Shown here: positions 7,601-58,701 of the stretch, in pieces
Numbering within the stretch: position 1 is the stretch's first letter
How the letters are laid out: each line of letters begins with the position of its first letter
NCBI GenBank assembly: GCA_964384125.1
Contig: CAYLKA010000004.1
Coordinates: forward strand, 5,576-69,575
DNA: 64,000 nt
DNA from: an uncultured Gammaproteobacteria bacterium
GTDB lineage: Bacteria; Pseudomonadota; Gammaproteobacteria; Steroidobacterales; Rariloculaceae
Direction of reading: 5' to 3'
The notes under the pieces: generated by a model
Database searches by the model: none
The model's input: only the letters and a program-made list of their open reading frames with translations
What the model was told of the DNA's origin: nothing
Made by a program: the position numbers and the translations under genes

Positions 7601-8485
7601 ATGGATCCTCCATCCTTGAAAAAAACAATCTTCTTTTTCGTGCGCCAGTTAACCTCTCGCACATCCCTGGCCGTGCTGTTATGCGCTCTGGTGGGCGGCC
7701 CGCTCGGCGCTCAGGATGTGCCACCCACAAGCGAATTTGCAGATGATCCTGAGGCAATCCGTATAGGGATGGGTGTTTATCGTCTGCGGTGCGCGGATTG
7801 TCACGGGACGGATGCTCGAGGAGTTCGCGCACCGGGTCTTACCCAGCTTTGGGCTTCTGGGCGAACTGATGAGGGGATTTTCAGGACGATAACTCAGGGC
7901 GTTCCTGGCACGATCATGCGGCCTATCGATCGCATCCGGACGCGTGATTCAGAGATTTGGCAGGTGATCGCCTATCTGCGCTCGATATCTACCCCGACAA
8001 CCACTCACCCCATGGGTGATGCTGGGCGTGGTGAGCAGATTTTTCAAGCGTCTTGCTCCGTCTGTCACCAGGTCAACTCGGCTGGTGGTCGATTAGGACC
8101 AGATTTGTCTCGTATAGGAGCGGCTAGGTCCGTAGACGCACTTGTCGATCGAATACGCGGTGAGCGTGAAATGCGGATTATGGCAACCCGAGCAACGGTC
8201 GGGGGCGCTATGGTTATAGACAAAAATTTTGCACAAACTTCCTTAACGGCAGTGTCAGGAGAAAGCATGCAAGGCGTCAAGAATAACGAAGACTTGTTCT
8301 CCATCCAGGTCATGGACATGGCTGGACGGATTCAGGGGTTCGATAAGGAGGCTTTGCAGATGCTGGAGGTTTCAACCGAATCTTTAATGCCCGCGTTCGG
8401 ACCAGAGACACTTAGTGACGCTGCTCTTGAAGACTTGGTTAGCTATCTTGTGACGCTGCGCGGGCATGACGCTGCGGTGCAATGA
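7601..8485 (+). CDS. Periplasmic c-type cytochrome with two CXXCH sites
   Basis: 294 aa with an N-terminal hydrophobic signal region. The haem-binding motifs are CADCH and CSVCH. It lies directly upstream of the PQQ dehydrogenase gene. Confidence 0.8.
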   Translation: MDPPSLKKTIFFFVRQLTSRTSLAVLLCALVGGPLGAQDVPPTSEFADDPEAIRIGMGVYRLRCADCHGTDARGVRAPGLTQLWASGRTDEGIFRTITQGVPGTIMRPIDRIRTRDSEIWQVIAYLRSISTPTTTHPMGDAGRGEQIFQASCSVCHQVNSAGGRLGPDLSRIGAARSVDALVDRIRGEREMRIMATRATVGGAMVIDKNFAQTSLTAVSGESMQGVKNNEDLFSIQVMDMAGRIQGFDKEALQMLEVSTESLMPAFGPETLSDAALEDLVSYLVTLRGHDAAVQ

Positions 8486-8495
8486 GGAGACACTG

Positions 8496-10136
8496 ATGCG
8501 CTTATTGAAACGCTCTATTTATTTGTCGTTCTTATTGGCAGTTATAGCGGTGCCATCCGTTGCACAGCATTCACCTGATGGTCGACTAGTGACACCGGAT
8601 GAGATTCGAGAGGGACTTACTCCTGATGGTTCCCGTTGGGTAACTTTTGGGGGCGATTACAATAATCACAGACACAGCCCGCTCACACAGATTACTCCGG
8701 AAAATGTTCACGAACTTGTGCCGCAGTGGACATTTCAGACAAACGTTCTTGAGAAGTTTGAAACAACGACGTTATATCGGGATAACGTTCTGTATGTTAC
8801 AGGCCCTCTGAACACCGCTTGGGCATTGGATGCCCGAAGCGGCAGGCCATTTTGGGAATATCGGAGGGAGTTACCGGAATTTTTAACGGCCTGTTGCGGA
8901 TTAGTTAACCGTGGTTTTGCGATGATGGGCGACAAGCTCTACATGGTTACCTTGGATGCACATCTGCTGGCTTTCGATAGCGCCACTGGACGGATTGTTT
9001 GGGATGCCACTATGGCGGACTACACCCAAGGTTATGCGGCAACAATTGCTCCGCTGGCCGTTAATGACAAAATCATTGTCGGTGTGGCAGGCGGAGAGTA
9101 TGGCATCCGAGGATATATCGACGCCTATGATGCAGAGACGGGAGAGCTTGCATGGCGTTTTTACACAATTCCTGGTCCTGGCGAACCGGGAAATGAGACG
9201 TGGGCCGGGGAGTCTTGGAGAACGGGTGGCGCGAGTGTTTGGGTGACTGGTGCGTATGATCCAGAGCTCAACCTGCTTTATTACGGCATAGGAAATCCGG
9301 GTCCGGACTATCATAGCGAGAGCCGGCTAGGTGACAATCTTTATAGCGACTCAGTAGTCGCGCTTGATGCTGATACAGGCGAACTGCGCTGGCACTATCA
9401 GTTTACTCCGCATGATCTTCATGATTGGGATGCTACAGAGGTGCCAATTCTTGCTGATATAGAGATTGATGCAGAGTTGCGTCAGGTTCTAATGTTTGCC
9501 AACCGTAATGGGTTTTATTACACGCTAGATAGGGCAACTGGAGAACTGCTTGTAGCAGAACCTTTTGTTAGAACAACATGGGCTACAGAGATAGGGTTAG
9601 ATGGTCGTCCAGTTCTTCTTCCAGGTCACGTACCAAATGAAGAAGGCGAAATTACTTGTCCGGATCTTAGGGGCGGGACTAATTTCTGGCCACCTAGCTT
9701 TGATCCGCAGACGGGAATGTTTTTCGTGAATGCTCGTGAAGGGTGCATGACTTATTTCTCTTGGGTGCAGGAATACATTCCCGGACAGCGTTTCACAGGG
9801 GGGTCCGGTCAGTACATCACAGATGATCCTGACATGCCTCACTACGGAGCGCTTCGCGCCTTAGATCCAACTAACGGTGAGCGTCTTTGGGAGTTTCGCT
9901 ATCCAACGCCTTCAGGCGCTGGTCTTCTCACAACCGCAACCGGGGTTATTTTTAGTGGCGATAATGATGGTAATTTGTTGGCCCTGAATTCTAATACCGG
10001 TGAACTGTTATGGAATTATCAGATGGGCGCGACGATGTGGGGCACTTCTCCTATAACGTACATGCTAGACGATCGCCAATATGTACTCGTACCTGCCGGT
10101 ACTACTCTGACGGCGTGGGCATTATGGGAAGAGTAG
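8496..10136 (+). CDS. PQQ-dependent dehydrogenase (quinoprotein alcohol/methanol dehydrogenase family), periplasmic
   Basis: The ORF spans 8466-10136. I prefer ATG 8496, which follows an AGGAGA Shine-Dalgarno and gives signal peptide MRLLKRSIYLSFLLAVIAVPSVAQ. It has the vicinal Cys-Cys (TACCGLVNRG, 8892-8897), VAGGEYGIRGY, TPHDLHDWDATE and repeated W-containing propeller motifs. Confidence 0.88.
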   Translation: MRLLKRSIYLSFLLAVIAVPSVAQHSPDGRLVTPDEIREGLTPDGSRWVTFGGDYNNHRHSPLTQITPENVHELVPQWTFQTNVLEKFETTTLYRDNVLYVTGPLNTAWALDARSGRPFWEYRRELPEFLTACCGLVNRGFAMMGDKLYMVTLDAHLLAFDSATGRIVWDATMADYTQGYAATIAPLAVNDKIIVGVAGGEYGIRGYIDAYDAETGELAWRFYTIPGPGEPGNETWAGESWRTGGASVWVTGAYDPELNLLYYGIGNPGPDYHSESRLGDNLYSDSVVALDADTGELRWHYQFTPHDLHDWDATEVPILADIEIDAELRQVLMFANRNGFYYTLDRATGELLVAEPFVRTTWATEIGLDGRPVLLPGHVPNEEGEITCPDLRGGTNFWPPSFDPQTGMFFVNAREGCMTYFSWVQEYIPGQRFTGGSGQYITDDPDMPHYGALRALDPTNGERLWEFRYPTPSGAGLLTTATGVIFSGDNDGNLLALNSNTGELLWNYQMGATMWGTSPITYMLDDRQYVLVPAGTTLTAWALWEE

Positions 10137-29576: not shown

Positions 29577-30665
29577 ATGGTTGAAGGTAGCGTGAGAAAA
29601 ATAACAATCGGTCTAATCGCAACGCTTCTATTCAGTTCATTGGTTTTTGGCCAAGCACCCCAACTGCGTCGCTCAGTTGTTGGAGAAGAGCCCGTCTGGA
29701 CCATAACCCACATTAATGGGGGGGTGTACAGGGCCTCCACAAACAATCATGGCACTGTATTTTTGGTAACCCAGGACGGAATAGTTTTGGCGGATCCGTT
29801 GAGTCTTGAGTTTTCGGTATGGCTTAAAGGGGAGTTTGAGACACGATTTGAAGTTCCTGTTAAGTATGTGGTCTACAGCCACTACCATTGGGATCATGCT
29901 TCGGGGGGAGAGGTTTTTGCAGACACTGCTCGGTTTGTTGGTCATGCCAATATGCTGTCCTATCTGGAGATGCCCCCATCCTCAACTACCTTGCAACAGG
30001 TTATTGGTCAGTATCAGCCTGTAGCCGCTTTGGATGCCAACGGTAATGGTGTTATTGATCAGAGCGAAGTTCCGGATGATTTTCAGCGTTTCCCAGGGTC
30101 AGCCCAGAGCCAGTTCGAAGGTTTCGATGAAGACGAGGACGGTGTTTTGAGTGGTGCTGAGGTGGTTCGTGGGCCTCTGCGTTTCGTCCACCCCCCCGAC
30201 ATCCGTTATTCAGACGAATTCCAGATCAGCCTGGGCGGTAAGCGGGTGAGGTTGACTTGGGTTGGAGACATGAATCATTCCAGTGATACGAGCCTGATTA
30301 CCTTTCCGGATGACGACGTGATGCTAATTGTCGACTATGTGTCGCAACGGCTTCCGAATAGGGAGATGGATTACGAGCTTGGAAAATTTCCGGAATGGAT
30401 GTCCGCGATTCGACTAACGGAGGAGATGGCCAAAGAGTTTCAGTTCGTTGCGACAGGACACGGACCCGTGGGTGACTGGGAGGACGTTAGCGCGTGGCGC
30501 GAGTACCTTGAAAAGCTTCGGGACGCGGTTGCCACAGGGATTGCTACCGGCCAGACATTGGAGGATATGCAGCGCGATATCACGATGGACGAATACAGTG
30601 ACTGGGAAGGTTTCGATTGGGTTGATGAGAACGTCCTCGGGATGTACCACTTCCTGACCGACTGA
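29577..30665 (+). CDS. Exported MBL-fold metallo-hydrolase with an inserted pair of EF-hand-like loops
   Basis: 362 aa with a signal peptide. The MBL motif is SHYHWDHASGG, with later H/D ligands. Two canonical 12-residue EF loops are DANGNGVIDQSE (30033-30068) and DEDEDGVLSGAE (30126-30161). Confidence 0.82.
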   Translation: MVEGSVRKITIGLIATLLFSSLVFGQAPQLRRSVVGEEPVWTITHINGGVYRASTNNHGTVFLVTQDGIVLADPLSLEFSVWLKGEFETRFEVPVKYVVYSHYHWDHASGGEVFADTARFVGHANMLSYLEMPPSSTTLQQVIGQYQPVAALDANGNGVIDQSEVPDDFQRFPGSAQSQFEGFDEDEDGVLSGAEVVRGPLRFVHPPDIRYSDEFQISLGGKRVRLTWVGDMNHSSDTSLITFPDDDVMLIVDYVSQRLPNREMDYELGKFPEWMSAIRLTEEMAKEFQFVATGHGPVGDWEDVSAWREYLEKLRDAVATGIATGQTLEDMQRDITMDEYSDWEGFDWVDENVLGMYHFLTD

Positions 30666-31714
30666 TGGGGAAGGGCATGCTATTGAAAACTTTAGCTATC
30701 ACCGTCGTGGCTTTCGTATTCACCTCGCTTGCTCACGGTCACCACAGCGATGCGGGTCTCGACATGGAGTCCCCTGTCACCCTTGAGGGGACCGTTACCG
30801 AGTTCAACTGGAGAAATCCCCACGTCTACTTTGGTGTAGAAACCACCGACGGGACGGAGTGGGAGGTACAGATGGGCTCGACCATCGTCCTTTCTCGTAT
30901 GGGCTGGACGCGCGAGTCTTTGGACATCGGTGACCAGGTGACCGTTGCGGTGTACGCAGCGCGCAATGGGCGCCCCTACGGCTTGATCAACGGTGTGGAG
31001 AAGGAAGGCGGTCTCGCTTTACCTGGGTCGTTCGACAGTGCGACTGCTGAGCCCCTTTTAAACGCACCCGCTCCGACCGGAAGCACATCGACTCTCGACG
31101 GTATCTGGTTGTCGGATGTCTCCGAACTCGTCAGTTACCCGGGTGGACTCGACGGGCTCTTTAACGCGTTGTTGAATGTCACCGAGAAGGGGCGTGCTGC
31201 GCAGGCTGCTTATTCTGAGATCTCAGAACAAAACCCCGGTGCAAATTGCATCGGCTTCCCGACCCCGACCATTATCATCCTTACGAACCTCTATCCGCTT
31301 CAGATCCAGATAAACGCGGACGAGGAAACGGTTTCGATACGAAGTGAGTTCTATGATGAGGAGCGAACGGTCTATATGGACGGCCGGACGCATCCCGGCG
31401 TGGGTGAGCGTACACATTCCGGGCATTCGATCGGTTGGTGGGAGGGCGACACTCTGGTGGTGGACACTACGAACTTTGCTGATCATCGTTCGCCTTACCA
31501 GATCGGTCTCCCTTCTGGAGTCCAAAAACATGTCGTTGAACGCTACACGCTGACCGATGACGGCACTCGTATTATCGTTGAGTTTATGCTTGAGGATCCG
31601 GAGTACATCTCAGTGCCGATGACGCACAGGCGGGAACTGATCTACTCTCCGCAGATGGAGTTGTCCGCCTTCGACTGTGATCCAGAGGCGACACGACGTT
31701 TCCTGCCACGATAA
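30665..31714 (+). CDS. Secreted two-domain His-His protein, paralogue 3 (function unknown)
   Basis: The ATG overlaps the upstream stop (TGATG). Signal peptide ...FTSLA, then HGHHSDAG. The N-domain has GTVTEFNWRNPHVYF...EWEVQ...GDQVTVAVYA. The C-domain has NPGANCIGFPTP, GHSIGWWEGDTLVVDTTNF, GLPSG, VERY, LEDPE and AFDCDP. Confidence 0.87.
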   Translation: MGKGMLLKTLAITVVAFVFTSLAHGHHSDAGLDMESPVTLEGTVTEFNWRNPHVYFGVETTDGTEWEVQMGSTIVLSRMGWTRESLDIGDQVTVAVYAARNGRPYGLINGVEKEGGLALPGSFDSATAEPLLNAPAPTGSTSTLDGIWLSDVSELVSYPGGLDGLFNALLNVTEKGRAAQAAYSEISEQNPGANCIGFPTPTIIILTNLYPLQIQINADEETVSIRSEFYDEERTVYMDGRTHPGVGERTHSGHSIGWWEGDTLVVDTTNFADHRSPYQIGLPSGVQKHVVERYTLTDDGTRIIVEFMLEDPEYISVPMTHRRELIYSPQMELSAFDCDPEATRRFLPR

Positions 31715-31796: not shown

Positions 31797-32891
31797 ATGA
31801 ATAGGGATGGATGCATGAAGCGATACGTTTCAATGATGATTCTGGGAATAGTTGGGATTGCCGTCGCGGGTGGTATGGCCAATGCGCAGACGGATCAGTT
31901 GAACGACCCGGATTGGCCCGACTGGGCATACGGATTTCTGACTCCTCTCGAGGAGGGCGATCGCGTCGCTCCCCCATGTCCACCGTCAACTTCGAATCCG
32001 CGCGATTGCAGAAACCAGACCCCTTCGGAGCCGGACGATGGCATCAAACACGAATTGCCAGGCACGGATAAAACCTTTACCCGTGCCGAGGCGAATTACG
32101 GCTATGGTCCTGCGGACTGGTTTCCGGAGTTCCATCCTGAGATGCCGGACATTGTTGCCCACGGTAAGGAGAGTGCCGGCATCCGTGCTTGTTCTCTATG
32201 CCACTACCCTAACGGCCAGGGGAAGATGGAAAACGCGCACGTCGCCGGGTTGCCCGCGGAGTACATCCTTCAGCAACTCGATGCGTTCGAGCGAGGTGAC
32301 CGTCGCAATTCCGATGTGCGTAAGGAGAACACTAACGAGATGTCGATCATGCCCAAGGGGCTCACCGACGAGGAGAAGCAACAGATAGCCGATTACTTCT
32401 CCTCAATACCTTTCCGTCAGTGGGTCCGGGTGGTGGAAGCTGAGGAGGTGCCCCAGGTACGTCTCACCAACGGCGGATTGATGGTGCCGATTCCCGGTGT
32501 CCCGATGATGCCACTGGGTAACCGCATCATCGAGGTGCCGGAGCATCCGGAACGCACCGAAATCATGCGCGATCCTAGGGCTGGATTCCTGACTTACGTG
32601 CCGGTGGGTAGCCTTGCGAAAGGTGAGGCGCTTGTGAGCACGGGGGGTGGCAAGACAATTCAGTGCGGGATCTGTCACGGCCCGGATCAGCGCGGCGTGG
32701 CGGCGATCCCCCCGATCGCTGGAAGAACCGCGAGCTACACGATGAGACAGCTTTGGGATTTCAAGCAAGGCACGAGGATGAGCCCGCTCATGGCACCTGT
32801 GGTGGCGAACCTCACGGCTGAGGACATGATGCATATCGTCGCCTATTTAGCTTCCTTGCCGCCTTCAGAAGAATCGTTCCCTGGCCCTTAG
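31797..32891 (+). CDS. Periplasmic dihaem c-type cytochrome
   Basis: 364 aa (likely start ATG 31815, MKRYVSMMILGIVGIAVAGGMANAQ). It has two CXXCH motifs, CSLCH and CGICH. Confidence 0.82.
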   Translation: MNRDGCMKRYVSMMILGIVGIAVAGGMANAQTDQLNDPDWPDWAYGFLTPLEEGDRVAPPCPPSTSNPRDCRNQTPSEPDDGIKHELPGTDKTFTRAEANYGYGPADWFPEFHPEMPDIVAHGKESAGIRACSLCHYPNGQGKMENAHVAGLPAEYILQQLDAFERGDRRNSDVRKENTNEMSIMPKGLTDEEKQQIADYFSSIPFRQWVRVVEAEEVPQVRLTNGGLMVPIPGVPMMPLGNRIIEVPEHPERTEIMRDPRAGFLTYVPVGSLAKGEALVSTGGGKTIQCGICHGPDQRGVAAIPPIAGRTASYTMRQLWDFKQGTRMSPLMAPVVANLTAEDMMHIVAYLASLPPSEESFPGP

Positions 32892-52555: not shown

Positions 52556-54388
52556 ATGCCGCGGGCACCCGCCCGCCGCCTGCAGGGGTTCCAGATGGAC
52601 CGAACACCACGTGCGGGCGCGATCGTCACATTCATCGCTCTAGGTCTTGGCATTGGATCGACCGGGAGTTCCCAGGAGTCGGCCGATCCCGACGTCATCG
52701 TCGTCGGTGCGGGTATTTCTGGCCTGGCCGCCAGCCTGGAGGCAGCGCAAGAGGGAGTGCGCGTACAAATCGTCGACATGTGGTCCGTATTCGGAGGCCA
52801 TGCGGTCATGTCCGGCGGTGGCGTAGCCATCGTTGGCTCGGATCTGCAGCTCGAGATGGGAATTGTGGATTCTCCTGAGATTGCCACTCAGGATTTCTTC
52901 GAGTGGGGTGAAGATCCCGACCCCTACTGGGTGGACTATTACGCTCAACACTCCAGGATCGAGTTGGGGCAGTGGCTAGAGTCCCTTGGTGTCCGATGGA
53001 CCGGCGTCAATCCGCAATTCGGCAATAGTGTGCCTCGCTTCCATCGTACTAACGGTCGTGGTCTGGGGCTGGTCACGCCGATCTACCGACAAGTGTTGCG
53101 CTACCCGAATGTGAACTTTCGCTGGAATTTCAAGATCAGCGGATTGCTGGTGGAGGAAGGTCGCGTTGTCGGCGTTCGGGGAGAGGACTTGAGAACTGGA
53201 GAAAGCGCCGAACTGCGCGCCGGCCATGTTTTGTTGGCGACTGGTGGATTTCAGAGCAACATGGAGATGGTGCGGCGTTTTTGGCCCGCCGACCTCGCTG
53301 AGCCGAGCGATCTTCTCGTTGGCTCGGGCCTCAACTCCGAGGGCTCAGGTCACGAGCTGGCGCAGGCAGTGGGTGCCGCCTTTCATCGTATGGATCATCA
53401 GTGGAATTACCCCTGGGGTCTGCCTCACCCGCATTATCCTGGAGAGGGTCGTGCACTCGCCTCCAGAAATTCCGTATCAATTTGGATAAATGCTGACGGC
53501 GAGCGTTTCGTTAACGAGCTCGATGACACGAAGTCGACCCTCGCCGCCGTCGTGGCACAGGCGCCGTCCACCTACTGGGCTATCTTCGATGATGACGACA
53601 ACGAGAATTTCTACGTCTCCGGAAGCGGCTGGGATGACTATCAGCGAATTCGCAAGGAGATCCTCGACAACCCCGAGCTGACCACGCAGGCTGCATCGCT
53701 AGCTGAGCTTGGCAGAGCGATCGACCAGGATCCCGTGAAGCTCGAAGCGACGGTCGCCAGGTTTAACGCGATGATCGACAGCGGTGTCGATGAGGATTTT
53801 GGTCGTTTCGGCGCCGAAGACGAACTTTCGCCGTTGGCCAGTATTGATCAGCCACCGTTTTACGCTATCCAGTTTTTCCCAATGACTCGCAAGAGCATGG
53901 GAGGCGTGGCGGTGGATGGCGAAACTAGGGTCATTCGTGAGGACGGCAGCGTGATTCCGGGGCTCTATGCTTCGGGCGAATTGACAGGGTTCGCGGGAGT
54001 CAACGGTTCCGCTGGTCTTGAAGGCACGTTCCTCGGGCCGGCTATTCTCACCGGTCGCGTAGCGGGACGAACGTTGGTTCGAGACGTCGGTGACAATCGG
54101 GAACTCGAAGCTCCGATCCCCGGTCTCCTCGCACAGGACTTTCCGTCACAGGAGTTCTCATCGCTCGATGTCGGGACCTGTAATGCTTGTCACAACTTGT
54201 CCGAGGCCGTAAGCGAACCGCGATCCGGATACGGGCACTTTGAGCGTGTGCACAGTATCGTTCTGGATGAACAACAGAATTGTGGAGACTGCCACGCTGG
54301 GCTTGCCCCCTACAGTCCACTAAACCATGAGATCGATAGCGTCGCTCAGACGGCCAGCTGCGTCCATTGTCACTTGGTGGTCGAATAA
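52556..54388 (+). CDS. Exported FAD-dependent oxidoreductase (fumarate reductase/KstD-like FAD_binding_2 type) with a C-terminal three-CXXCH domain
   Basis: 610 aa (alternative start ATG 52595). The FAD dinucleotide motif is DVIVVGAGISGLAASLEAA, followed by LYASGELTGF. The last ~70 aa carry CNACH, CGDCH and CVHCH (54179-54385), plus extra His residues. Confidence 0.8.
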   Translation: MPRAPARRLQGFQMDRTPRAGAIVTFIALGLGIGSTGSSQESADPDVIVVGAGISGLAASLEAAQEGVRVQIVDMWSVFGGHAVMSGGGVAIVGSDLQLEMGIVDSPEIATQDFFEWGEDPDPYWVDYYAQHSRIELGQWLESLGVRWTGVNPQFGNSVPRFHRTNGRGLGLVTPIYRQVLRYPNVNFRWNFKISGLLVEEGRVVGVRGEDLRTGESAELRAGHVLLATGGFQSNMEMVRRFWPADLAEPSDLLVGSGLNSEGSGHELAQAVGAAFHRMDHQWNYPWGLPHPHYPGEGRALASRNSVSIWINADGERFVNELDDTKSTLAAVVAQAPSTYWAIFDDDDNENFYVSGSGWDDYQRIRKEILDNPELTTQAASLAELGRAIDQDPVKLEATVARFNAMIDSGVDEDFGRFGAEDELSPLASIDQPPFYAIQFFPMTRKSMGGVAVDGETRVIREDGSVIPGLYASGELTGFAGVNGSAGLEGTFLGPAILTGRVAGRTLVRDVGDNRELEAPIPGLLAQDFPSQEFSSLDVGTCNACHNLSEAVSEPRSGYGHFERVHSIVLDEQQNCGDCHAGLAPYSPLNHEIDSVAQTASCVHCHLVVE

Positions 54389-54407: not shown

Positions 54408-56132
54408 TCAAGGTGCGCTCGGCGGGGGGATGCGAGCTCGTGTCGCTTGCTCGAAGGCATAGGCGAGCGCGATCAAACGGGGCTCGCTGCACGCGAGTCC
54501 CGTAAACGAGACGCCGAACGGAGCCGGCTCCGGCTCAAAACCCTCGGGAAACGGGGGTTCTGCGCGTGTCGCGATGCGTCCGATGGGGACGATCACGGAT
54601 GGATACCCTGGCCTGGCAGCGACGTTGGAGCCTCGATTCATCGGAAAAAGTAGCGCGTCCAGGTTGTGTTCTGTGATGGCGGCGTCAATACCGTGCGCGC
54701 CCGTCAGCTCAATGTCCTTCGCGCGGTCCGCTTGATAGCGTGCGCGGTCCCTGTCGAGATCGATCTCGTCGGAAATATCGAGCAATGCCTGCTCGTACTT
54801 GATGGTACCGAGGCGTACGTTTTCCCGGTTCCATTGTCGAAGCTCGGTGAGTGAGCGTACCGGTGAGGTGTTGCCTAGCGTTTCCAGCCAAGCGTTGAAA
54901 TCCCGCTTCATGCCGTACTTGAAGACGATGGAGCAGTGCTCATCATTTCCGCGTGTAGTGTTTTCCCCTGCGCAGATTCCCCATCGAAATAGATTACGAG
55001 CGGGATCTGGATCGAGCACCGTGGGTAGGTTCGCTGGGTCGACGATGGTCGCACCTTGTGCTTCTAGAGCTTCTACGGCCTCTTCGAATAACTCGAGTTG
55101 AGCGGCGTCGAGTCCCCCGCGTGGGTTCGCCGCGCCTGGCACTGCGTTGGGTTCCACGAAACCCGCTCGCGGGATCCCGATGCGCGCACCACTCAGGCTG
55201 TCGGCGTCCAGAGACGCGGTGTAGTCGCTGTCGGGCGGGGCCTCACATCGACTGGTGGCCGGATCGTTTGGGTCCGGCTCGGCACTCTCTAGCACTCCGA
55301 GGAGAATGGCGGCGTCGGTAACGCTTCTCGCCATCGGTCCCGCCGTGTCCTGATCCGCGGTGATCGGAATAATCCCGTAGCGGCTGATGCGCCCCAGGGT
55401 TGGTTTGATGCCGACCAACATGTTTTGGTTCGAGGGCCAAAGGATGGACCCGGATGTTTCTGTGCCCACGTTGGCTGCCCACAAGTTCGCACTGGTGCCG
55501 ATGCCTGAGCTTGAGCCGCCCGGCGATAGCACCGGCATGCCGTCACCGATACCGGGACGTGGGTCGCGGCGAGGGTCGTACGGATTGAACCCATAGCCGC
55601 CGAGGGAACTGTAGTTGTCAGGCATATCGAACGGCGCTCCAGCGACCCAGTTTGCCAACTCGGTCAGCACGGTCTTAGCGATGATGATGGCGCCGGCTTC
55701 CCGTAGCCTGATGGTCAACGTCGCATCGTACGGGGGGGTCAGTCCCTCGAAGGCCAGAGAACCGCCCGTGGTGGGCATGTTCGTCGTATGAATATTGTCT
55801 TTCAATGCGATGGGTATGCCGTGGAGCGGGCCACGCACACGACCCTGCGCGCGCTCTCGGTCTAGGAGTTCGGCTTCCGCCATTGCGTTAGGATTTACGC
55901 TGATGGTGGCATTTAGTTGGTTTTCGTAGAGTGCGATGCGCGTCAAGTACCGCTGCACGAGATCTTGCGCCGACAGGCGCCCCTCGTTCATCGCGTTCTG
56001 CATGTCCGGGATGCTTGCTTCTACGATGGAGAAGGGCTCGTCGACCTCTGGCTCAATGGAGGTGTCCATGTCGCAGCCAGCGATCACCAAGAGGATCGCG
56101 GTCATCACATAAGAGGGGCGCGCTGTGGCCAT
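54408..56132 (-). CDS. Amidase-signature family amidase, lipoprotein
   Basis: 574 aa with a lipobox LLVIAGC. The AS motif is GGSSSGIGTSANLW...GTETSGSI, preceded by GIPIALKDNI. Confidence 0.87.
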   Translation of the reverse strand: MATARPSYVMTAILLVIAGCDMDTSIEPEVDEPFSIVEASIPDMQNAMNEGRLSAQDLVQRYLTRIALYENQLNATISVNPNAMAEAELLDRERAQGRVRGPLHGIPIALKDNIHTTNMPTTGGSLAFEGLTPPYDATLTIRLREAGAIIIAKTVLTELANWVAGAPFDMPDNYSSLGGYGFNPYDPRRDPRPGIGDGMPVLSPGGSSSGIGTSANLWAANVGTETSGSILWPSNQNMLVGIKPTLGRISRYGIIPITADQDTAGPMARSVTDAAILLGVLESAEPDPNDPATSRCEAPPDSDYTASLDADSLSGARIGIPRAGFVEPNAVPGAANPRGGLDAAQLELFEEAVEALEAQGATIVDPANLPTVLDPDPARNLFRWGICAGENTTRGNDEHCSIVFKYGMKRDFNAWLETLGNTSPVRSLTELRQWNRENVRLGTIKYEQALLDISDEIDLDRDRARYQADRAKDIELTGAHGIDAAITEHNLDALLFPMNRGSNVAARPGYPSVIVPIGRIATRAEPPFPEGFEPEPAPFGVSFTGLACSEPRLIALAYAFEQATRARIPPPSAP

Positions 56133-57678: not shown

Positions 57679-58701
57679 ATGAAAAGACTGATTGGAAAAC
57701 GGCTAGGATTCATCTTCGGTCTGCTCGGGTTCGCTCTGCCGCTTCCAGGTCAGACTCACCATGCGTTTTCAGGTGTCTTTGACATGGACAATCTCACTGA
57801 GCTTGAAGGTGAGATCACGCGTCTGATGTGGCGTAACCCTCACGTGCAGTTCACGATGCGAGATGCTAACGGTGAGTTGTGGGATATCGAAACCAACTCT
57901 GTAAGTATCCTCAGCCGTATGGACGTGAGCGCGGAGCTCCTCGCAGAGGGTGATCGGATCACGGTCGCCGGATACGCTGCTCGGAGTGGCGCCAACGCAA
58001 TGTGGATCAACCATGTTCTTCTCTCAGACGGGCGAGAGCTTGTCACGCGCCCCGGCGTTGAACCCCATTGGGCGAGCGAGCATCTAGGCGTGTCGGAGAC
58101 CTGGTTAGCCGGCGGTTTCGAAGGCGGGGCGGAGCAGGGGATCTTCCGCGTCTGGAGCACGCGTTTCAACGGCCCCGGTCGTTACATGGGTCTACCCGAG
58201 TATCCGCTGACCGCCTCTGCGTCAGCCGCCCAGTCGGCGTTCGATCCGCTTGCAGACGATCCCATCGGCGACTGCACGCCAAAAGGCATACCGTGGATTA
58301 TGCAGCAACCCTATCCCGTCGCCTTTTCTCGGAGTGATGAAGACATACTGTTCCACATTGAGGAGTACGACCTCGTTCGTACCATCCACATGGACCCGTA
58401 TGCCGTGGATGAAGATGCCCCCCCAAGTCTTCTGGGGTACTCCGTGGGTCGGTGGGACGGAGACGATCTAGTGGTGTATACACACTCGGTCGATTGGTAT
58501 CACTTTAACTCGAGCGGAATTCCTCAGAGTGCCGAGGCGCAGTTCGAAGAACGGTTCTCCTTGAGCGACGGCGGGGCTAATCTTGATTACACGGTGATCG
58601 TCACCGATCCGCAGACGTTCACAGAGCCAGTGACCATGAGAAAACAATGGGTCTGGCGGCCGGGCGAAACAGTCAAGCCCTACGAGTGTACAAACTATTG
58701 A
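57679..58701 (+). CDS. Secreted two-domain His-His protein, paralogue 5 (function unknown)
   Basis: GGGAGGGGGA Shine-Dalgarno. Signal peptide ...ALPLPGQT, then HHAFSGVFD. The N-domain has GEITRLMWRNPHVQF...LWDIE...GDRITVAGYA...LLSDGRELV. The C-domain has DPIGDCTPKGIP, GYSVGRWDGDDLVVYTHS, GIPQSA, EERF, VTDPQ and PYECTN. Confidence 0.87.
   Translation: MKRLIGKRLGFIFGLLGFALPLPGQTHHAFSGVFDMDNLTELEGEITRLMWRNPHVQFTMRDANGELWDIETNSVSILSRMDVSAELLAEGDRITVAGYAARSGANAMWINHVLLSDGRELVTRPGVEPHWASEHLGVSETWLAGGFEGGAEQGIFRVWSTRFNGPGRYMGLPEYPLTASASAAQSAFDPLADDPIGDCTPKGIPWIMQQPYPVAFSRSDEDILFHIEEYDLVRTIHMDPYAVDEDAPPSLLGYSVGRWDGDDLVVYTHSVDWYHFNSSGIPQSAEAQFEERFSLSDGGANLDYTVIVTDPQTFTEPVTMRKQWVWRPGETVKPYECTNY

What the first reader, a model, noticed from the sequence alone, without database searches (positions are those of the whole stretch)
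52556..54388. Flavoprotein with a C-terminal triple-CXXCH module: an atypically arranged flavocytochrome c
The N-terminal ~530 aa are a FAD_binding_2-type oxidoreductase (GAGISGLAAS ... LYASGELTGF). The final ~70 aa contain CNACH, CGDCH and CVHCH (from 54179), plus additional His residues (GHFERVH, NHEID) that could provide bis-His ligation. The well-known Shewanella-type flavocytochrome c3 places its tetrahaem domain at the N-terminus. A short C-terminal trihaem tail is not an arrangement I recognise. The N-terminus has an RR-containing leader (PARRLQGF...IVTFIALGLGIG), yet covalent haem attachment normally needs Sec export plus Ccm. This makes the export route an open question.
Basis: partly seen in the sequence, partly recalled or inferred. 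Interest (0 to 1): 0.6.

Follow-up and report, generated by a model that had tools for sequence, protein, structure and literature searches.

The report
Flavoenzyme with C-terminal three-haem tail
This gene encodes an exported flavin enzyme whose last 70 residues carry three haem-binding sites; it belongs to a widespread but unstudied bacterial family that resembles the well-known Shewanella flavocytochrome c3 with the haem module at the opposite end and a different active site.

Summary
ORF 52556-54388 (+) encodes a FAD_binding_2 flavoprotein (Pfam 2e-61). Its only six cysteines form CNACH, CGDCH and CVHCH in the last 70 residues.

The tail is not chance and not a frameshift. Of the 120 best homologues (47-98% identity), 119 carry three CXXCH motifs at the same positions. 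In a 44-sequence alignment, the three motifs and three further histidines (H561, H566, H591) are invariant. That gives three bis-His haems.

The tail is distantly c7-like and occurs almost only on this flavoprotein family. The family is found in Gammaproteobacteria, Acidobacteriota, Planctomycetota, Verrucomicrobiota, Myxococcota and Gemmatimonadota.

The "RR leader" is an artefact. Orthologues have stop codons upstream of the M14 equivalent, so the real start is ATG 52595, followed by an ordinary Sec-type signal peptide. Sec plus haem maturation therefore poses no export conflict.

The enzyme is not a fumarate reductase, because the Fcc3 substrate and catalytic residues are replaced. An invariant His82 aligns with the covalent-FAD histidine of SdhA.

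Best reading: a self-contained periplasmic trihaem flavocytochrome, more likely a dehydrogenase feeding the respiratory chain, with an unknown and probably anionic substrate. It is a new variant of a known kind, of moderate interest.

The parts
52595..54388 (+). Coding sequence from the probable true start (Met14 of the long ORF) to the stop codon; 597-aa precursor
   Evidence: ORF. Orthologues start at the M14 equivalent, with upstream in-frame stops. P0002 (89% identity) is called from this Met.
52556..52594 (+). Upstream in-frame extension (MPRAPARRLQGFQ) holding the RR pair; probably not translated
   Evidence: No Shine-Dalgarno-like sequence lies before ATG 52556. Residues 1-13 are not conserved, and the frame is closed by stops in L006 and L086.
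52584..52588 (+). AGGGG, a Shine-Dalgarno-like sequence 6 nt upstream of ATG 52595
   Evidence: Read directly from the sequence.
52595..52690 (+). Sec-type signal peptide region (MDRTPRAGAIVTFIALGLGIGSTGSSQESADP): positive n-region, 15-residue hydrophobic core, polar c-region; exact cleavage site not determined
   Evidence: Read directly from the sequence. Its 32-residue length equals the median leader of homologues, and 105 of 110 homologue leaders have a hydrophobic core. AlphaFold pLDDT is below 50 for residues 1-41.
52691..54034 (+). FAD_binding_2 flavin and substrate (clamp) domains, residues 46-493, starting with the GAGISG dinucleotide-binding motif
   Evidence: Pfam PF00890, E 2.3e-61. 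PDB sequence hit to the Fcc3 flavin domain, 1e-48. Foldseek hits to Fcc3, UrdA and KstD.
52799..52801 (+). Codon of His82 (GGHAVMSGGG), invariant in the family; aligns with the covalent 8-alpha-N3-histidyl-FAD site His45 of E. coli SdhA
   Evidence: Invariant in A1. Ungapped alignment to SdhA H45. Fcc3 has Asn at this position.
54035..54160 (+). Last helix of the flavin domain (residues 493-512) and a poorly conserved linker (about 513-535)
   Evidence: Secondary structure and pLDDT; variable columns in A1 and A2.
54161..54385 (+). C-terminal trihaem cytochrome c module, residues 536-610
   Evidence: Pfam Cytochrome_C7 at 23.7 bits, just under the 24.8 cutoff. The tail profile hits the c7-type domains of Geobacter GSU1996, 3ov0, at 1.3e-11. 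Conserved in 119 of 120 homologues.
54179..54193 (+). Haem-binding motif 1, CNACH (C542, C545, H546)
   Evidence: Invariant. Lost in the dihaem sister subfamily.
54236..54253 (+). H561 and H566 (GYGHFERVH), invariant; inferred distal ligands of haems 2 and 3
   Evidence: Invariant. Retained in the dihaem variants.
54281..54295 (+). Haem-binding motif 2, CGDCH (C576, C579, H580)
   Evidence: Invariant.
54326..54328 (+). H591, invariant; inferred distal ligand of haem 1
   Evidence: Invariant in trihaem members. Absent in 9 of 11 full-length dihaem variants, which also lack CXXCH 1.
54359..54373 (+). Haem-binding motif 3, CVHCH (C602, C605, H606); the middle His604 is not conserved
   Evidence: C, C and H are invariant. 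The middle residue varies among homologues.

Best explanation
The gene encodes a self-contained periplasmic flavocytochrome c with an unusual layout. Translation starts at ATG 52595. A Sec-type signal peptide takes the unfolded chain across the inner membrane. The haem maturation system then attaches three c-type haems to CNACH, CGDCH and CVHCH, and each haem is completed by a conserved distal histidine: H591 for haem 1, and H561 and H566 for haems 2 and 3. FAD is bound in the periplasm, probably covalently through His82. The flavin domain carries out a two-electron oxidation or reduction of a small, probably anionic, organic substrate. Its chemistry is probably of the C-C/C=C type typical of this superfamily, but in an active site rebuilt around Y285, R445, K446, R299, R161, H163 and E489 instead of the fumarate-binding His/Arg residues of Fcc3. 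The three haems act as a short wire between FAD and a periplasmic redox partner. I think the oxidative direction is the more likely one: substrate to FAD to haems to a c-type cytochrome and the respiratory chain. Shown here: the architecture, conservation, start codon, loss of the fumarate site, and the alignment of His82. Inferred: haem and FAD occupancy, ligand assignment, direction, substrate class and partner.
For: Architecture and conservation:
- establish the ORF, the domains and the conserved motifs.
- The protein has six Cys, all in CXXCH motifs.
- The tail is c7-like by profile (3ov0, 1.3e-11) and by Pfam (23.7 bits).
- Of 1.84 billion representative proteins, only 201 match the tail. 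Nearly all matches are at the C-terminus of 580-620 aa flavoproteins or fragments of them.
- AlphaFold gives one compact model with pTM 0.86 and tail pLDDT 75-87.

Export route:
- The start codon and Sec leader rest.

Not a fumarate reductase:
- Fcc3 H365 is replaced by Y285, R402 by T325, H504/H505 by R445/K446, and the Arg of HGANRLG by G487 (alignment, invariants).
- Every NCBIfam model scores below its cutoff.

Possible covalent FAD:
- His82 is invariant and aligns with SdhA His45.

Ligand assignment:
- CXXCH 1 and H591 are lost together in dihaem relatives.

Oxidative direction:
- The locus is found in seawater metagenomes.
- The carriers are mostly aerobic heterotroph lineages.
- The same window holds a PQQ dehydrogenase next to a dihaem cytochrome c.
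- In Planctomycetota the gene sits next to a Tat-exported FMN-dependent 2-hydroxy-acid dehydrogenase. This holds across homologues only 59-74% identical to one another, and in one locus only 48-50% identical to them, where the two genes are co-directional and 4 nt apart.
- From my own knowledge, periplasmic flavocytochrome c dehydrogenases such as PCMH and FCSD carry covalent FAD, whereas Fcc3-type reductases do not.

Expression:
- Marine metatranscriptome contigs cover parts of the gene, including the tail.
Against: - No haem, FAD or activity has been measured.
- Bis-His c7-type haems are usually low-potential, which suits reductases.
- The closest characterised relatives (Fcc3, UrdA) are reductases.
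- From my own knowledge, covalent flavinylation in SdhA/FrdA depends on active-site residues that are replaced here, so His82 may not form the bond.
- No neighbouring gene is conserved across phyla that would point to a substrate or partner.
- The tail-only model found no structural match in the PDB.
Confidence: 0.6

Rival explanations
1. The architecture is the same, but the enzyme runs in the reductive direction. It would be a periplasmic terminal reductase for an unsaturated organic acid other than fumarate (acrylate, crotonate, urocanate-like or similar). Electrons would come from a quinol-oxidising multihaem cytochrome, pass through the three haems to FAD, and support anaerobic or micro-oxic respiration as Fcc3, UrdA and ArdA do.
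For: The closest sequence and structure relatives are reductases: Fcc3 at 1e-48 and UrdA at 3e-40, with matching Foldseek hits. The best NCBIfam hit is TIGR01813 flavocytochrome c. Three bis-His haems in a c7-like module are typical of low-potential electron delivery. A few carriers are labelled as anaerobe-related lineages, such as Thermoanaerobaculia and Thermodesulfobacteriota.
Against: The proton-donating Arg402 and the carboxylate-binding His/Arg residues of the reductases are not conserved. An invariant His sits at the covalent-FAD position, which known soluble reductases lack. The habitat is oxic seawater and the carrier phyla are mostly aerobic. No NapC/CymA-type gene lies next to the gene in 78 loci. 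The conserved Planctomycete neighbour is a dehydrogenase.
Confidence: 0.3
2. It is an ordinary Fcc3-type soluble fumarate reductase that merely has its haem domain at the other end.
For: The flavin fold and 28-29% identity to Fcc3. JGI names several homologues 'flavocytochrome c'.
Against: All four fumarate-binding or catalytic positions are replaced, and the replacements are themselves invariant (Y285, R445, K446, G487/E489). TIGR01813 scores 224 bits against a cutoff of 285. The haem module is a three-haem c7-like unit rather than the four-haem Fcc3 domain.
Confidence: 0.03
3. The protein starts at ATG 52556 and is exported folded by Tat using the RR pair, which would require an unusual route for haem attachment.
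For: ATG 52556 is in frame and the 98%-identical P0001 was called with the same long start. RR is present at residues 7-8.
Against: RR lies 12 residues before the hydrophobic core and does not fit the S/T-R-R-x-F-L-K consensus. Orthologues L086 (89% identity) and L006 (75% identity) have in-frame stops upstream of the M14 equivalent. Only ATG 52595 has a Shine-Dalgarno-like sequence before it. At most 6 of 110 homologue leaders match even a loose Tat pattern. In the same Planctomycete loci the neighbouring FMN enzyme has a clear RRFFS Tat motif while the flavocytochrome does not.
Confidence: 0.03
4. The tail is an artefact (a frameshifted or fused separate gene), or a Cys/His metal site that does not bind haem.
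For: Pfam does not score the tail above its cutoff. Foldseek finds no structural match for the tail alone. One low-coverage contig (L089) has the tail without the flavin domain.
Against: The ORF is continuous in two independent near-identical assemblies and in 119 of 120 homologues from many phyla. Three CXXCH plus three more His are invariant with fixed spacing. The protein carries an export signal. The profile relates the tail to c7-type haem domains.
Confidence: 0.01

Closest known systems
Shewanella flavocytochrome c3 (Fcc3/FccA, Ifc3) soluble fumarate reductase (PDB 1qjd, 1d4c, 1qo8; TIGR01813)
   Same: Both are periplasmic single-chain fusions of a FAD_binding_2 flavin domain (28-29% identity, E 1e-48) with a small multihaem bis-His cytochrome c module that wires FAD to periplasmic partners. 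From my own knowledge, Fcc3 also uses Sec export with haem attached in the periplasm.
   Different: The haem module here is C-terminal, not N-terminal, and has three haems in about 70 residues rather than four in about 100. It is related to c7-type domains, not to the Fcc3 haem domain. The fumarate-binding and catalytic residues are replaced. There is a His at the covalent-FAD position where Fcc3 has Asn. The protein scores below the TIGR01813 cutoff.
Cytochrome c7 (PpcA family) and the c7-type domains of Geobacter GSU1996 (PDB 3ov0, 3oue, 1rwj; Pfam PF14522)
   Same: Both have three CXXCH haems in about 70 residues with six conserved His in total. Profile similarity is 1.3e-11 to 3ov0, and Pfam PF14522 scores 23.7 bits.
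   Different: The ligand order differs. Here it is CXXCH, then H-x4-H, then CXXCH, then H, then CXXCH; from memory, PpcA places its two distal His before the first CXXCH. The tail is fused to an enzyme rather than free-standing or polymerised. It falls below the Pfam cutoff, and no Foldseek match was found for the apo model.
Urocanate reductase UrdA and related periplasmic ene-reductases (PDB 6t85/6t86)
   Same: The flavin domain fold is shared (TM-score normalised by target length up to 0.82; E 3e-40). Both are periplasmic enzymes acting next to a carboxylate.
   Different: From my own knowledge, UrdA takes electrons through an FMN-binding domain with covalently attached FMN, not through haems. 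The active-site residues differ.
Periplasmic flavoprotein dehydrogenase with trihaem cytochrome c complexes (FAD glucose, fructose and gluconate dehydrogenases; see PMC6719666)
   Same: This is an analogy of working principle. A periplasm-facing FAD dehydrogenase hands electrons to a three-haem cytochrome c and then to the aerobic respiratory chain.
   Different: In those complexes the flavoprotein has an unrelated GMC fold, the cytochrome is a separate subunit with class I haems, and (per that paper) export uses Tat with a hitchhiker subunit and there is an Fe-S cluster. None of this is homologous to the protein here.
SdhA/FrdA flavoprotein subunits of complex II
   Same: They belong to the same FAD_binding_2 superfamily, and the invariant His82 aligns with the covalent-FAD His45 of E. 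coli SdhA.
   Different: Identity is only about 23% and partial. There are no Fe-S or membrane subunits, and the dicarboxylate site is not conserved. SdhA/FrdA are cytoplasm-facing, whereas this protein is exported.

Membership tests
Flavocytochrome c3 / soluble fumarate reductase (TIGR01813 flavo_cyto_c) | FAD_binding_2 flavin and clamp domain fold | tested here: met
   Pfam PF00890, E 2.3e-61. Foldseek to 1qjd and others, E 1e-37, probability 1.00.
Flavocytochrome c3 / soluble fumarate reductase (TIGR01813 flavo_cyto_c) | Score at or above the curated NCBIfam cutoff | tested here: not met
   224.2 bits against a cutoff of 285.45. No other NCBIfam model reaches its cutoff either.
Flavocytochrome c3 / soluble fumarate reductase (TIGR01813 flavo_cyto_c) | N-terminal tetrahaem cytochrome domain | tested here: not met
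   There is no CXXCH before residue 542. Three motifs lie at the C-terminus.
Flavocytochrome c3 / soluble fumarate reductase (TIGR01813 flavo_cyto_c) | Fumarate-binding and catalytic residues His365, Arg402, His504/505 and the Arg of HGANRLG | tested here: not met
   They are replaced by Y285, T325, R445/K446 and G487 in the HMMER alignment. The replacements are invariant or nearly so in the family.
Cytochrome c7 (Pfam PF14522) | Three CXXCH motifs within about 70 residues | tested here: met
   Residues 542-606, invariant in 44 homologues.
Cytochrome c7 (Pfam PF14522) | Three further conserved His to give bis-His ligation | tested here: met
   H561, H566 and H591 are invariant. Actual ligation cannot be tested with these tools.
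Cytochrome c7 (Pfam PF14522) | Score at or above the Pfam gathering cutoff, and a c7 fold | tested here: inconclusive
   23.7 bits against 24.8. Precomputed hits to PF14522 are listed for 19 of the 120 homologues. The profile hits GSU1996 c7-type domains at 1.3e-11. Foldseek of the apo tail model finds nothing.
Covalently flavinylated SdhA/FrdA-type flavoproteins | His at the 8-alpha-N3-histidyl-FAD position | tested here: met
   H82 aligns without gaps to E. coli SdhA H45 and is invariant in the family.
Covalently flavinylated SdhA/FrdA-type flavoproteins | An actual covalent FAD-protein bond | not testable with these tools
   This needs in-gel flavin fluorescence or mass spectrometry of the expressed protein and of an H82A mutant.
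Tat-exported redox enzymes | S/T-R-R-x-F-L-K motif directly before the hydrophobic core, conserved in orthologues | tested here: not met
   RR lies in a non-conserved extension that is closed by stop codons in orthologues. At most 6 of 110 homologue leaders match even a loose pattern.
Sec-exported c-type cytochromes | N-terminal signal peptide with a positive n-region, a hydrophobic core and a polar c-region | tested here: met
   MDRTPRAGAIVTFIALGLGIGSTGSSQES from M14. Of 110 homologue leaders, 105 have a hydrophobic core, and the median leader is 32 residues. No dedicated predictor such as SignalP was available.

The most novel reading that the evidence does not exclude
This is the founding example of an independently evolved class of flavocytochrome c. 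A c7-like trihaem wire was grafted onto the C-terminus of a FAD_binding_2 enzyme that holds its FAD covalently through a SdhA-like histidine. The result would be a one-polypeptide periplasmic dehydrogenase that lets aerobic marine and soil bacteria of at least six phyla respire on a still unidentified, probably anionic, organic compound outside the cytoplasm.
Probability: 0.4. Interest if true: 0.6.

Novelty: new variant of a known kind. Interest (0 to 1): 0.45.

Why it matters
Flavocytochromes c are textbook models for electron transfer between haem and flavin, and nearly all of that knowledge comes from the N-terminal tetrahaem Fcc3 type. This family shows the same solution reached a second time with a different haem module at the other terminus. 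A recent survey of multihaem cytochrome fusions discusses only the N-terminal case (bioRxiv 10.1101/2025.05.29.656830).

The family is widespread. Relatives were confirmed in 205 candidate stretches of the species-representative genome collection, and the 80 loci examined, all MAGs, span six phyla. Yet it has no curated model. NCBI names members 'FAD-dependent oxidoreductase', and Pfam hits to the haem tail are on record for about one member in six, so the haems are usually invisible in annotation.

If it is a dehydrogenase with covalent FAD, it would add an unrecognised periplasmic route for feeding organic electrons into respiration in abundant, mostly uncultured heterotrophs. At about 560 residues when mature, it would also be a compact scaffold for direct-electron-transfer bioelectrocatalysis.

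If it turns out to be one more ene-reductase, it is a modest extension of a known theme.

Tried and rejected
1. Foldseek of a tail-only AlphaFold model (pLDDT 79.7) against the PDB gave only meaningless hits with E above 2. Apo models of small multihaem domains are poor queries, so this says nothing either way.

2. BLASTP against E. coli SdhA did not align the N-terminus. The His82/His45 correspondence was obtained with MAFFT --add and a local alignment instead.

3. I looked for a conserved operon partner by calling and clustering ORFs in 78 loci. None is shared across phyla. The upstream xerD-dsbC pair is lineage synteny within the gammaproteobacterial group.

4. The promoter and terminator scan around the gene was uninformative: no sigma-70-like site, and terminator-like sites at chance level.

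5. Five literature searches found no paper on a C-terminal multihaem FAD_binding_2 protein.

6. Model coordinates are not exposed, so the FAD-to-haem distance and the identity of the haem nearest FAD could not be measured.

7. Fumarate reductase, 3-ketosteroid dehydrogenase and L-aspartate oxidase assignments were considered and rejected, on missing catalytic residues or much weaker similarity.

8. Short hits to the tail profile looked like free-standing cytochromes. Most are contig-end fragments that still carry flavin-domain motifs. One, L089, looks like a real or assembly-made deletion of the flavin domain.

Full report
**1. The observation**

The ORF 52556-54388 on the + strand is present and encodes 610 residues. 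Pfam places FAD_binding_2 on residues 46-493 (E 2.3e-61). It gives a sub-threshold Cytochrome_C7 hit on residues 539-606 (23.7 bits against a cutoff of 24.8).

The protein has exactly six cysteines, and all six lie in these motifs. G+C content is typical of the window.

**2. The tail is real and conserved**

A search of 5.8 billion proteins gave more than 2,600 hits. The best 120 are 47-98% identical, mostly 525-655 residues long (one 408-residue fragment), and most cover over 90% of the query. Of these, 119 have three CXXCH motifs at matching C-terminal positions.

In a 44-sequence alignment (A1) the invariant columns include:
- C542, C545, H546;
- H561, H566;
- C576, C579, H580;
- H591;
- C602, C605, H606.

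That is three haem-attachment motifs plus three further histidines, exactly what three bis-His haems need. No methionine is conserved in the tail.

Two near-identical independent assemblies carry the same continuous ORF. A frameshift or gene-fusion artefact is therefore excluded.

**3. What the tail is related to**

A profile of the tail alone (A2, 83 positions) finds the c7-type trihaem domains of the Geobacter dodecahaem cytochrome GSU1996 in the PDB (3ov0, 1.3e-11; 3oue, 2e-06; 1rwj, 0.0023).

Against 1.84 billion representative proteins the profile finds only 201 proteins at E up to 0.001. Of the 150 best that were listed, about ten are large c7-polymer multihaem cytochromes. Nearly all the rest are either 575-622 residue flavoproteins with the match at the C-terminus, or contig-end fragments that still carry flavin-domain motifs. 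So the module is distantly c7-like, but in this form it is essentially private to this flavoprotein family.

The ligand order is CXXCH, x14, H, x4, H, x9, CXXCH, x10, H, x10, CXXCH. From memory, this differs from PpcA, where two distal histidines come before the first CXXCH.

A sister subfamily has only two CXXCH motifs. In 9 of 11 full-length representatives the loss of motif 1 goes together with loss of the H591 equivalent, while H561 and H566 are kept. This is evolutionary evidence that H591 is the distal ligand of haem 1 and that H561 and H566 serve haems 2 and 3. It also shows that haem 1 can be dispensed with. That would fit haem 1 being the outermost of the chain, but this is inference.

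**4. Start codon and export**

It lies in residues 1-13, which are not conserved.
- In the 89%-identical orthologue (L086) the frame upstream of the M14 equivalent reads LRR*QRHFCKGLE-MDRTPRAG.
- In the 75%-identical orthologue (L006) it reads ...S*K*KHTSRGD-MDRIPHTS.

Both are closed by stop codons. In the window, ATG 52595 (M14) is preceded by AGGGG with a 6-nt spacer, whereas ATG 52556 has nothing comparable.

From M14 the leader is MDRTPRAGAIVTFIALGLGIGSTGSSQESADP. It has a positive n-region, a 15-residue hydrophobic core and a polar c-region, and the Rossmann strand DVIVVGAG follows directly. Its 32 residues equal the median leader length of homologues. Of 110 homologue leaders, 105 have a hydrophobic core, and at most six match even a loose Tat pattern, some of them spuriously. 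Some homologues appear to have lipoprotein-type leaders (read by eye).

The export route is therefore the ordinary one for c-type cytochromes: Sec, then periplasmic haem attachment. From my own knowledge, this is also the route of Shewanella Fcc3, whose FAD is supplied in the periplasm. What remains open is how FAD is supplied here.

**5. The flavin domain**

The best solved relatives by sequence are:

| Relative | E-value |
|---|---|
| Fcc3 flavin domain (residues 127-563) | 1e-48 |
| Urocanate reductase UrdA | 3e-40 |
| Yeast Osm1 | 1e-20 |
| 3-ketosteroid dehydrogenases | 1e-17 to 1e-18 |

The AlphaFold model built on A1 is confident (mean pLDDT 86.3, pTM 0.86; tail blocks 75-87). Foldseek returns the same families plus cyclohexanone dehydrogenase.

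The residues that define fumarate reduction in Fcc3 are the subjects of the mutant structures listed: His365, Arg402, His505, Arg381 and Glu378. They are not kept here. In the HMMER alignment:
- H365 aligns with Y285.
- R402 aligns with T325.
- H504/H505 align with R445/K446.
- The Arg of HGANRLG aligns with G487.

Y285, R445 and K446 are invariant, and G487 is nearly so. Also invariant are R161, H163, D280, W283, R299, R317, E321, E475 and E489. No NCBIfam model reaches its cutoff; the best is TIGR01813 at 224 bits against 285.

So this is a distinct subfamily with its own active site. That site is rich in basic residues, which suggests an anionic substrate. The superfamily's usual chemistry is reduction or desaturation of a C-C bond next to a carboxyl or carbonyl group. 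The substrate cannot be named from sequence.

**6. A possible covalent FAD**

The invariant His82 (GGHAVMSGGG) aligns without gaps from the dinucleotide-binding motif onto His45 of E. coli SdhA. From established knowledge, His45 is the site of the 8-alpha-N3-histidyl-FAD bond. Fcc3 has Asn at this position.

From my own knowledge:
- Covalent attachment raises the flavin potential, and in complex II it is needed for oxidising succinate rather than for reducing fumarate.
- Periplasmic flavocytochrome c dehydrogenases (p-cresol methylhydroxylase, flavocytochrome c sulfide dehydrogenase) hold FAD covalently.
- Covalent flavinylation in SdhA/FrdA depends on active-site residues that are replaced here.

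The bond is therefore an inference that needs testing.

**7. Distribution and context**

A scan of one genome per species confirmed a relative in 205 of 240 candidate stretches. The 80 loci returned are all MAGs. They are labelled as:
- Gammaproteobacteria (closest at 77% identity; Candidatus Rariloculaceae at 67-71%);
- Acidobacteriota;
- Planctomycetota;
- Verrucomicrobiota;
- Myxococcota;
- Gemmatimonadales;
- with isolated other labels (Rhodospirillaceae, Streptomycetaceae).

The window's locus is present in many seawater metagenomes. Short marine metatranscriptome contigs match parts of the gene at 95-99% identity, including 54210-54360 in the tail. This is weak evidence of transcription.

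Clustering the neighbours of 78 loci showed no partner conserved across phyla. In the window and its gammaproteobacterial relatives the gene follows xerD-dsbC and is convergent with an amidase. I read this as lineage synteny.

Two local associations are suggestive:
- In Planctomycetota, eight loci place the gene next to an FMN-dependent 2-hydroxy-acid dehydrogenase (PF01070, 1e-127) that has a clear Tat signal (for example MDRRFFSQLL). This holds although the flavocytochromes are only 59-74% identical to one another. In a further locus, only 48-50% identical to the planctomycete ones, the two genes are co-directional and 4 nt apart.
- Three loci have a neighbouring enolase-superfamily enzyme; the one I read (L046) has a Tat signal.

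The window itself also holds a PQQ dehydrogenase next to a dihaem cytochrome c. These contexts, the oxic habitat and His82 make me favour the oxidative direction. The low-potential character usual for bis-His haems and the reductase nature of the closest relatives argue the other way.

**8. Comparison with what is known**

In working principle the protein is like Fcc3: one exported chain in which a small multihaem module wires a FAD site to periplasmic partners. By the tests applied here it is not a member of the Fcc3/TIGR01813 family. The cutoff, the N-terminal tetrahaem domain and the catalytic residues all fail.

The tail works like a cytochrome c7 but is at best a divergent relative. If the enzyme is a dehydrogenase, the nearest functional analogy is the unrelated set of periplasmic FAD dehydrogenase and trihaem cytochrome complexes (PMC6719666).

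A 2025 survey of multihaem cytochrome fusions describes only the N-terminal graft in FccA (bioRxiv 10.1101/2025.05.29.656830). Five full-text searches found no description of this C-terminal architecture. Databases call the proteins 'FAD-dependent oxidoreductase' or, through TIGR01813, 'flavocytochrome c'.

**9. Verdict**

The interpretation as an atypically arranged flavocytochrome c is supported. The export puzzle disappears once the start codon is corrected.

This is a new variant of a known kind: a conserved, widespread and uncharacterised trihaem flavocytochrome family with a rebuilt active site and a possible covalent FAD. Substrate and direction are unknown. I give about 0.55-0.6 to a dehydrogenase and about 0.3 to a reductase. 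Interest is moderate (0.45).

Noticed in passing
window 57679-58701 (+) and 30665-31714 (+); also L007, L008, L010, L024 and others: Two DUF6152 paralogues carry signal peptides, and their predicted mature N-termini begin HH (…GQT-HHAFSG and …AHG-HHSDAG). The copy at 30665-31714 is followed directly by a dihaem cytochrome c (31797-32891). DUF6152 genes recur within a few genes of the flavocytochrome in 9 gammaproteobacterial-type loci (including the window), sometimes on both sides. This may be an uncharacterised periplasmic metal or redox protein family linked to c-type cytochromes.
   Followed up: partly
window 7601-8485 (+) and 8466-10136 (+): A dihaem class I cytochrome c (Cytochrome_CBB3 plus Cytochrom_C) overlaps the start of a PQQ-dependent dehydrogenase. 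This is a classic periplasmic dehydrogenase and cytochrome pair, and it suggests an aerobic lifestyle for this organism.
   Followed up: no
proteins P0212, P0216, P0223, P0229, P0232, P0233, P0235, P0244, P0246, P0260, P0262: A sister subfamily of full-length flavoproteins has a dihaem tail. The first CXXCH is lost, and in 9 of 11 the H591 equivalent is lost with it. Most also lack the DHQWNY active-site signature, so they may act on a different substrate.
   Followed up: partly
L089 197-511 (+): In a low-coverage metagenome contig, the TPR gene that normally precedes the flavocytochrome in some Acidobacteriota is followed by a 104-residue ORF. That ORF consists only of a signal peptide joined to the trihaem tail, with the whole flavin domain missing. 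It is either a natural deletion that creates a free trihaem cytochrome or an assembly artefact.
   Followed up: partly
L042, L043, L055, L058, L063, L071, L075, L080 (FMN_dh); L046, L054, L074 (MR_MLE): In Planctomycetota the flavocytochrome gene sits beside an FMN-dependent 2-hydroxy-acid dehydrogenase with a clear Tat signal, and in three loci beside an enolase-superfamily enzyme (a Tat signal was read in L046). This hints at a periplasmic hydroxy-acid or sugar-acid oxidation module.
   Followed up: partly
L002, L003, L004, 5131-8001 (+): In three large contigs carrying the identical protein P0073 (lineage not determined; 49% identity to the window protein), the flavocytochrome start overlaps the stop of a 956-residue GH3 plus beta-lactamase-fold fusion. 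The cluster also holds YdjC, amidohydrolase, NamZ and aminotransferase genes, which suggests amino-sugar or peptidoglycan-fragment processing.
   Followed up: no
window 54408-56132 (-): A convergent amidase-family gene ends 19 nt from the flavocytochrome stop codon. It has a lipoprotein-type leader (…LLVIAGC). The amidase is the convergent downstream neighbour in the window, the two near-identical assemblies (L087, L088), L005 and L006, and lies upstream in L066.
   Followed up: no
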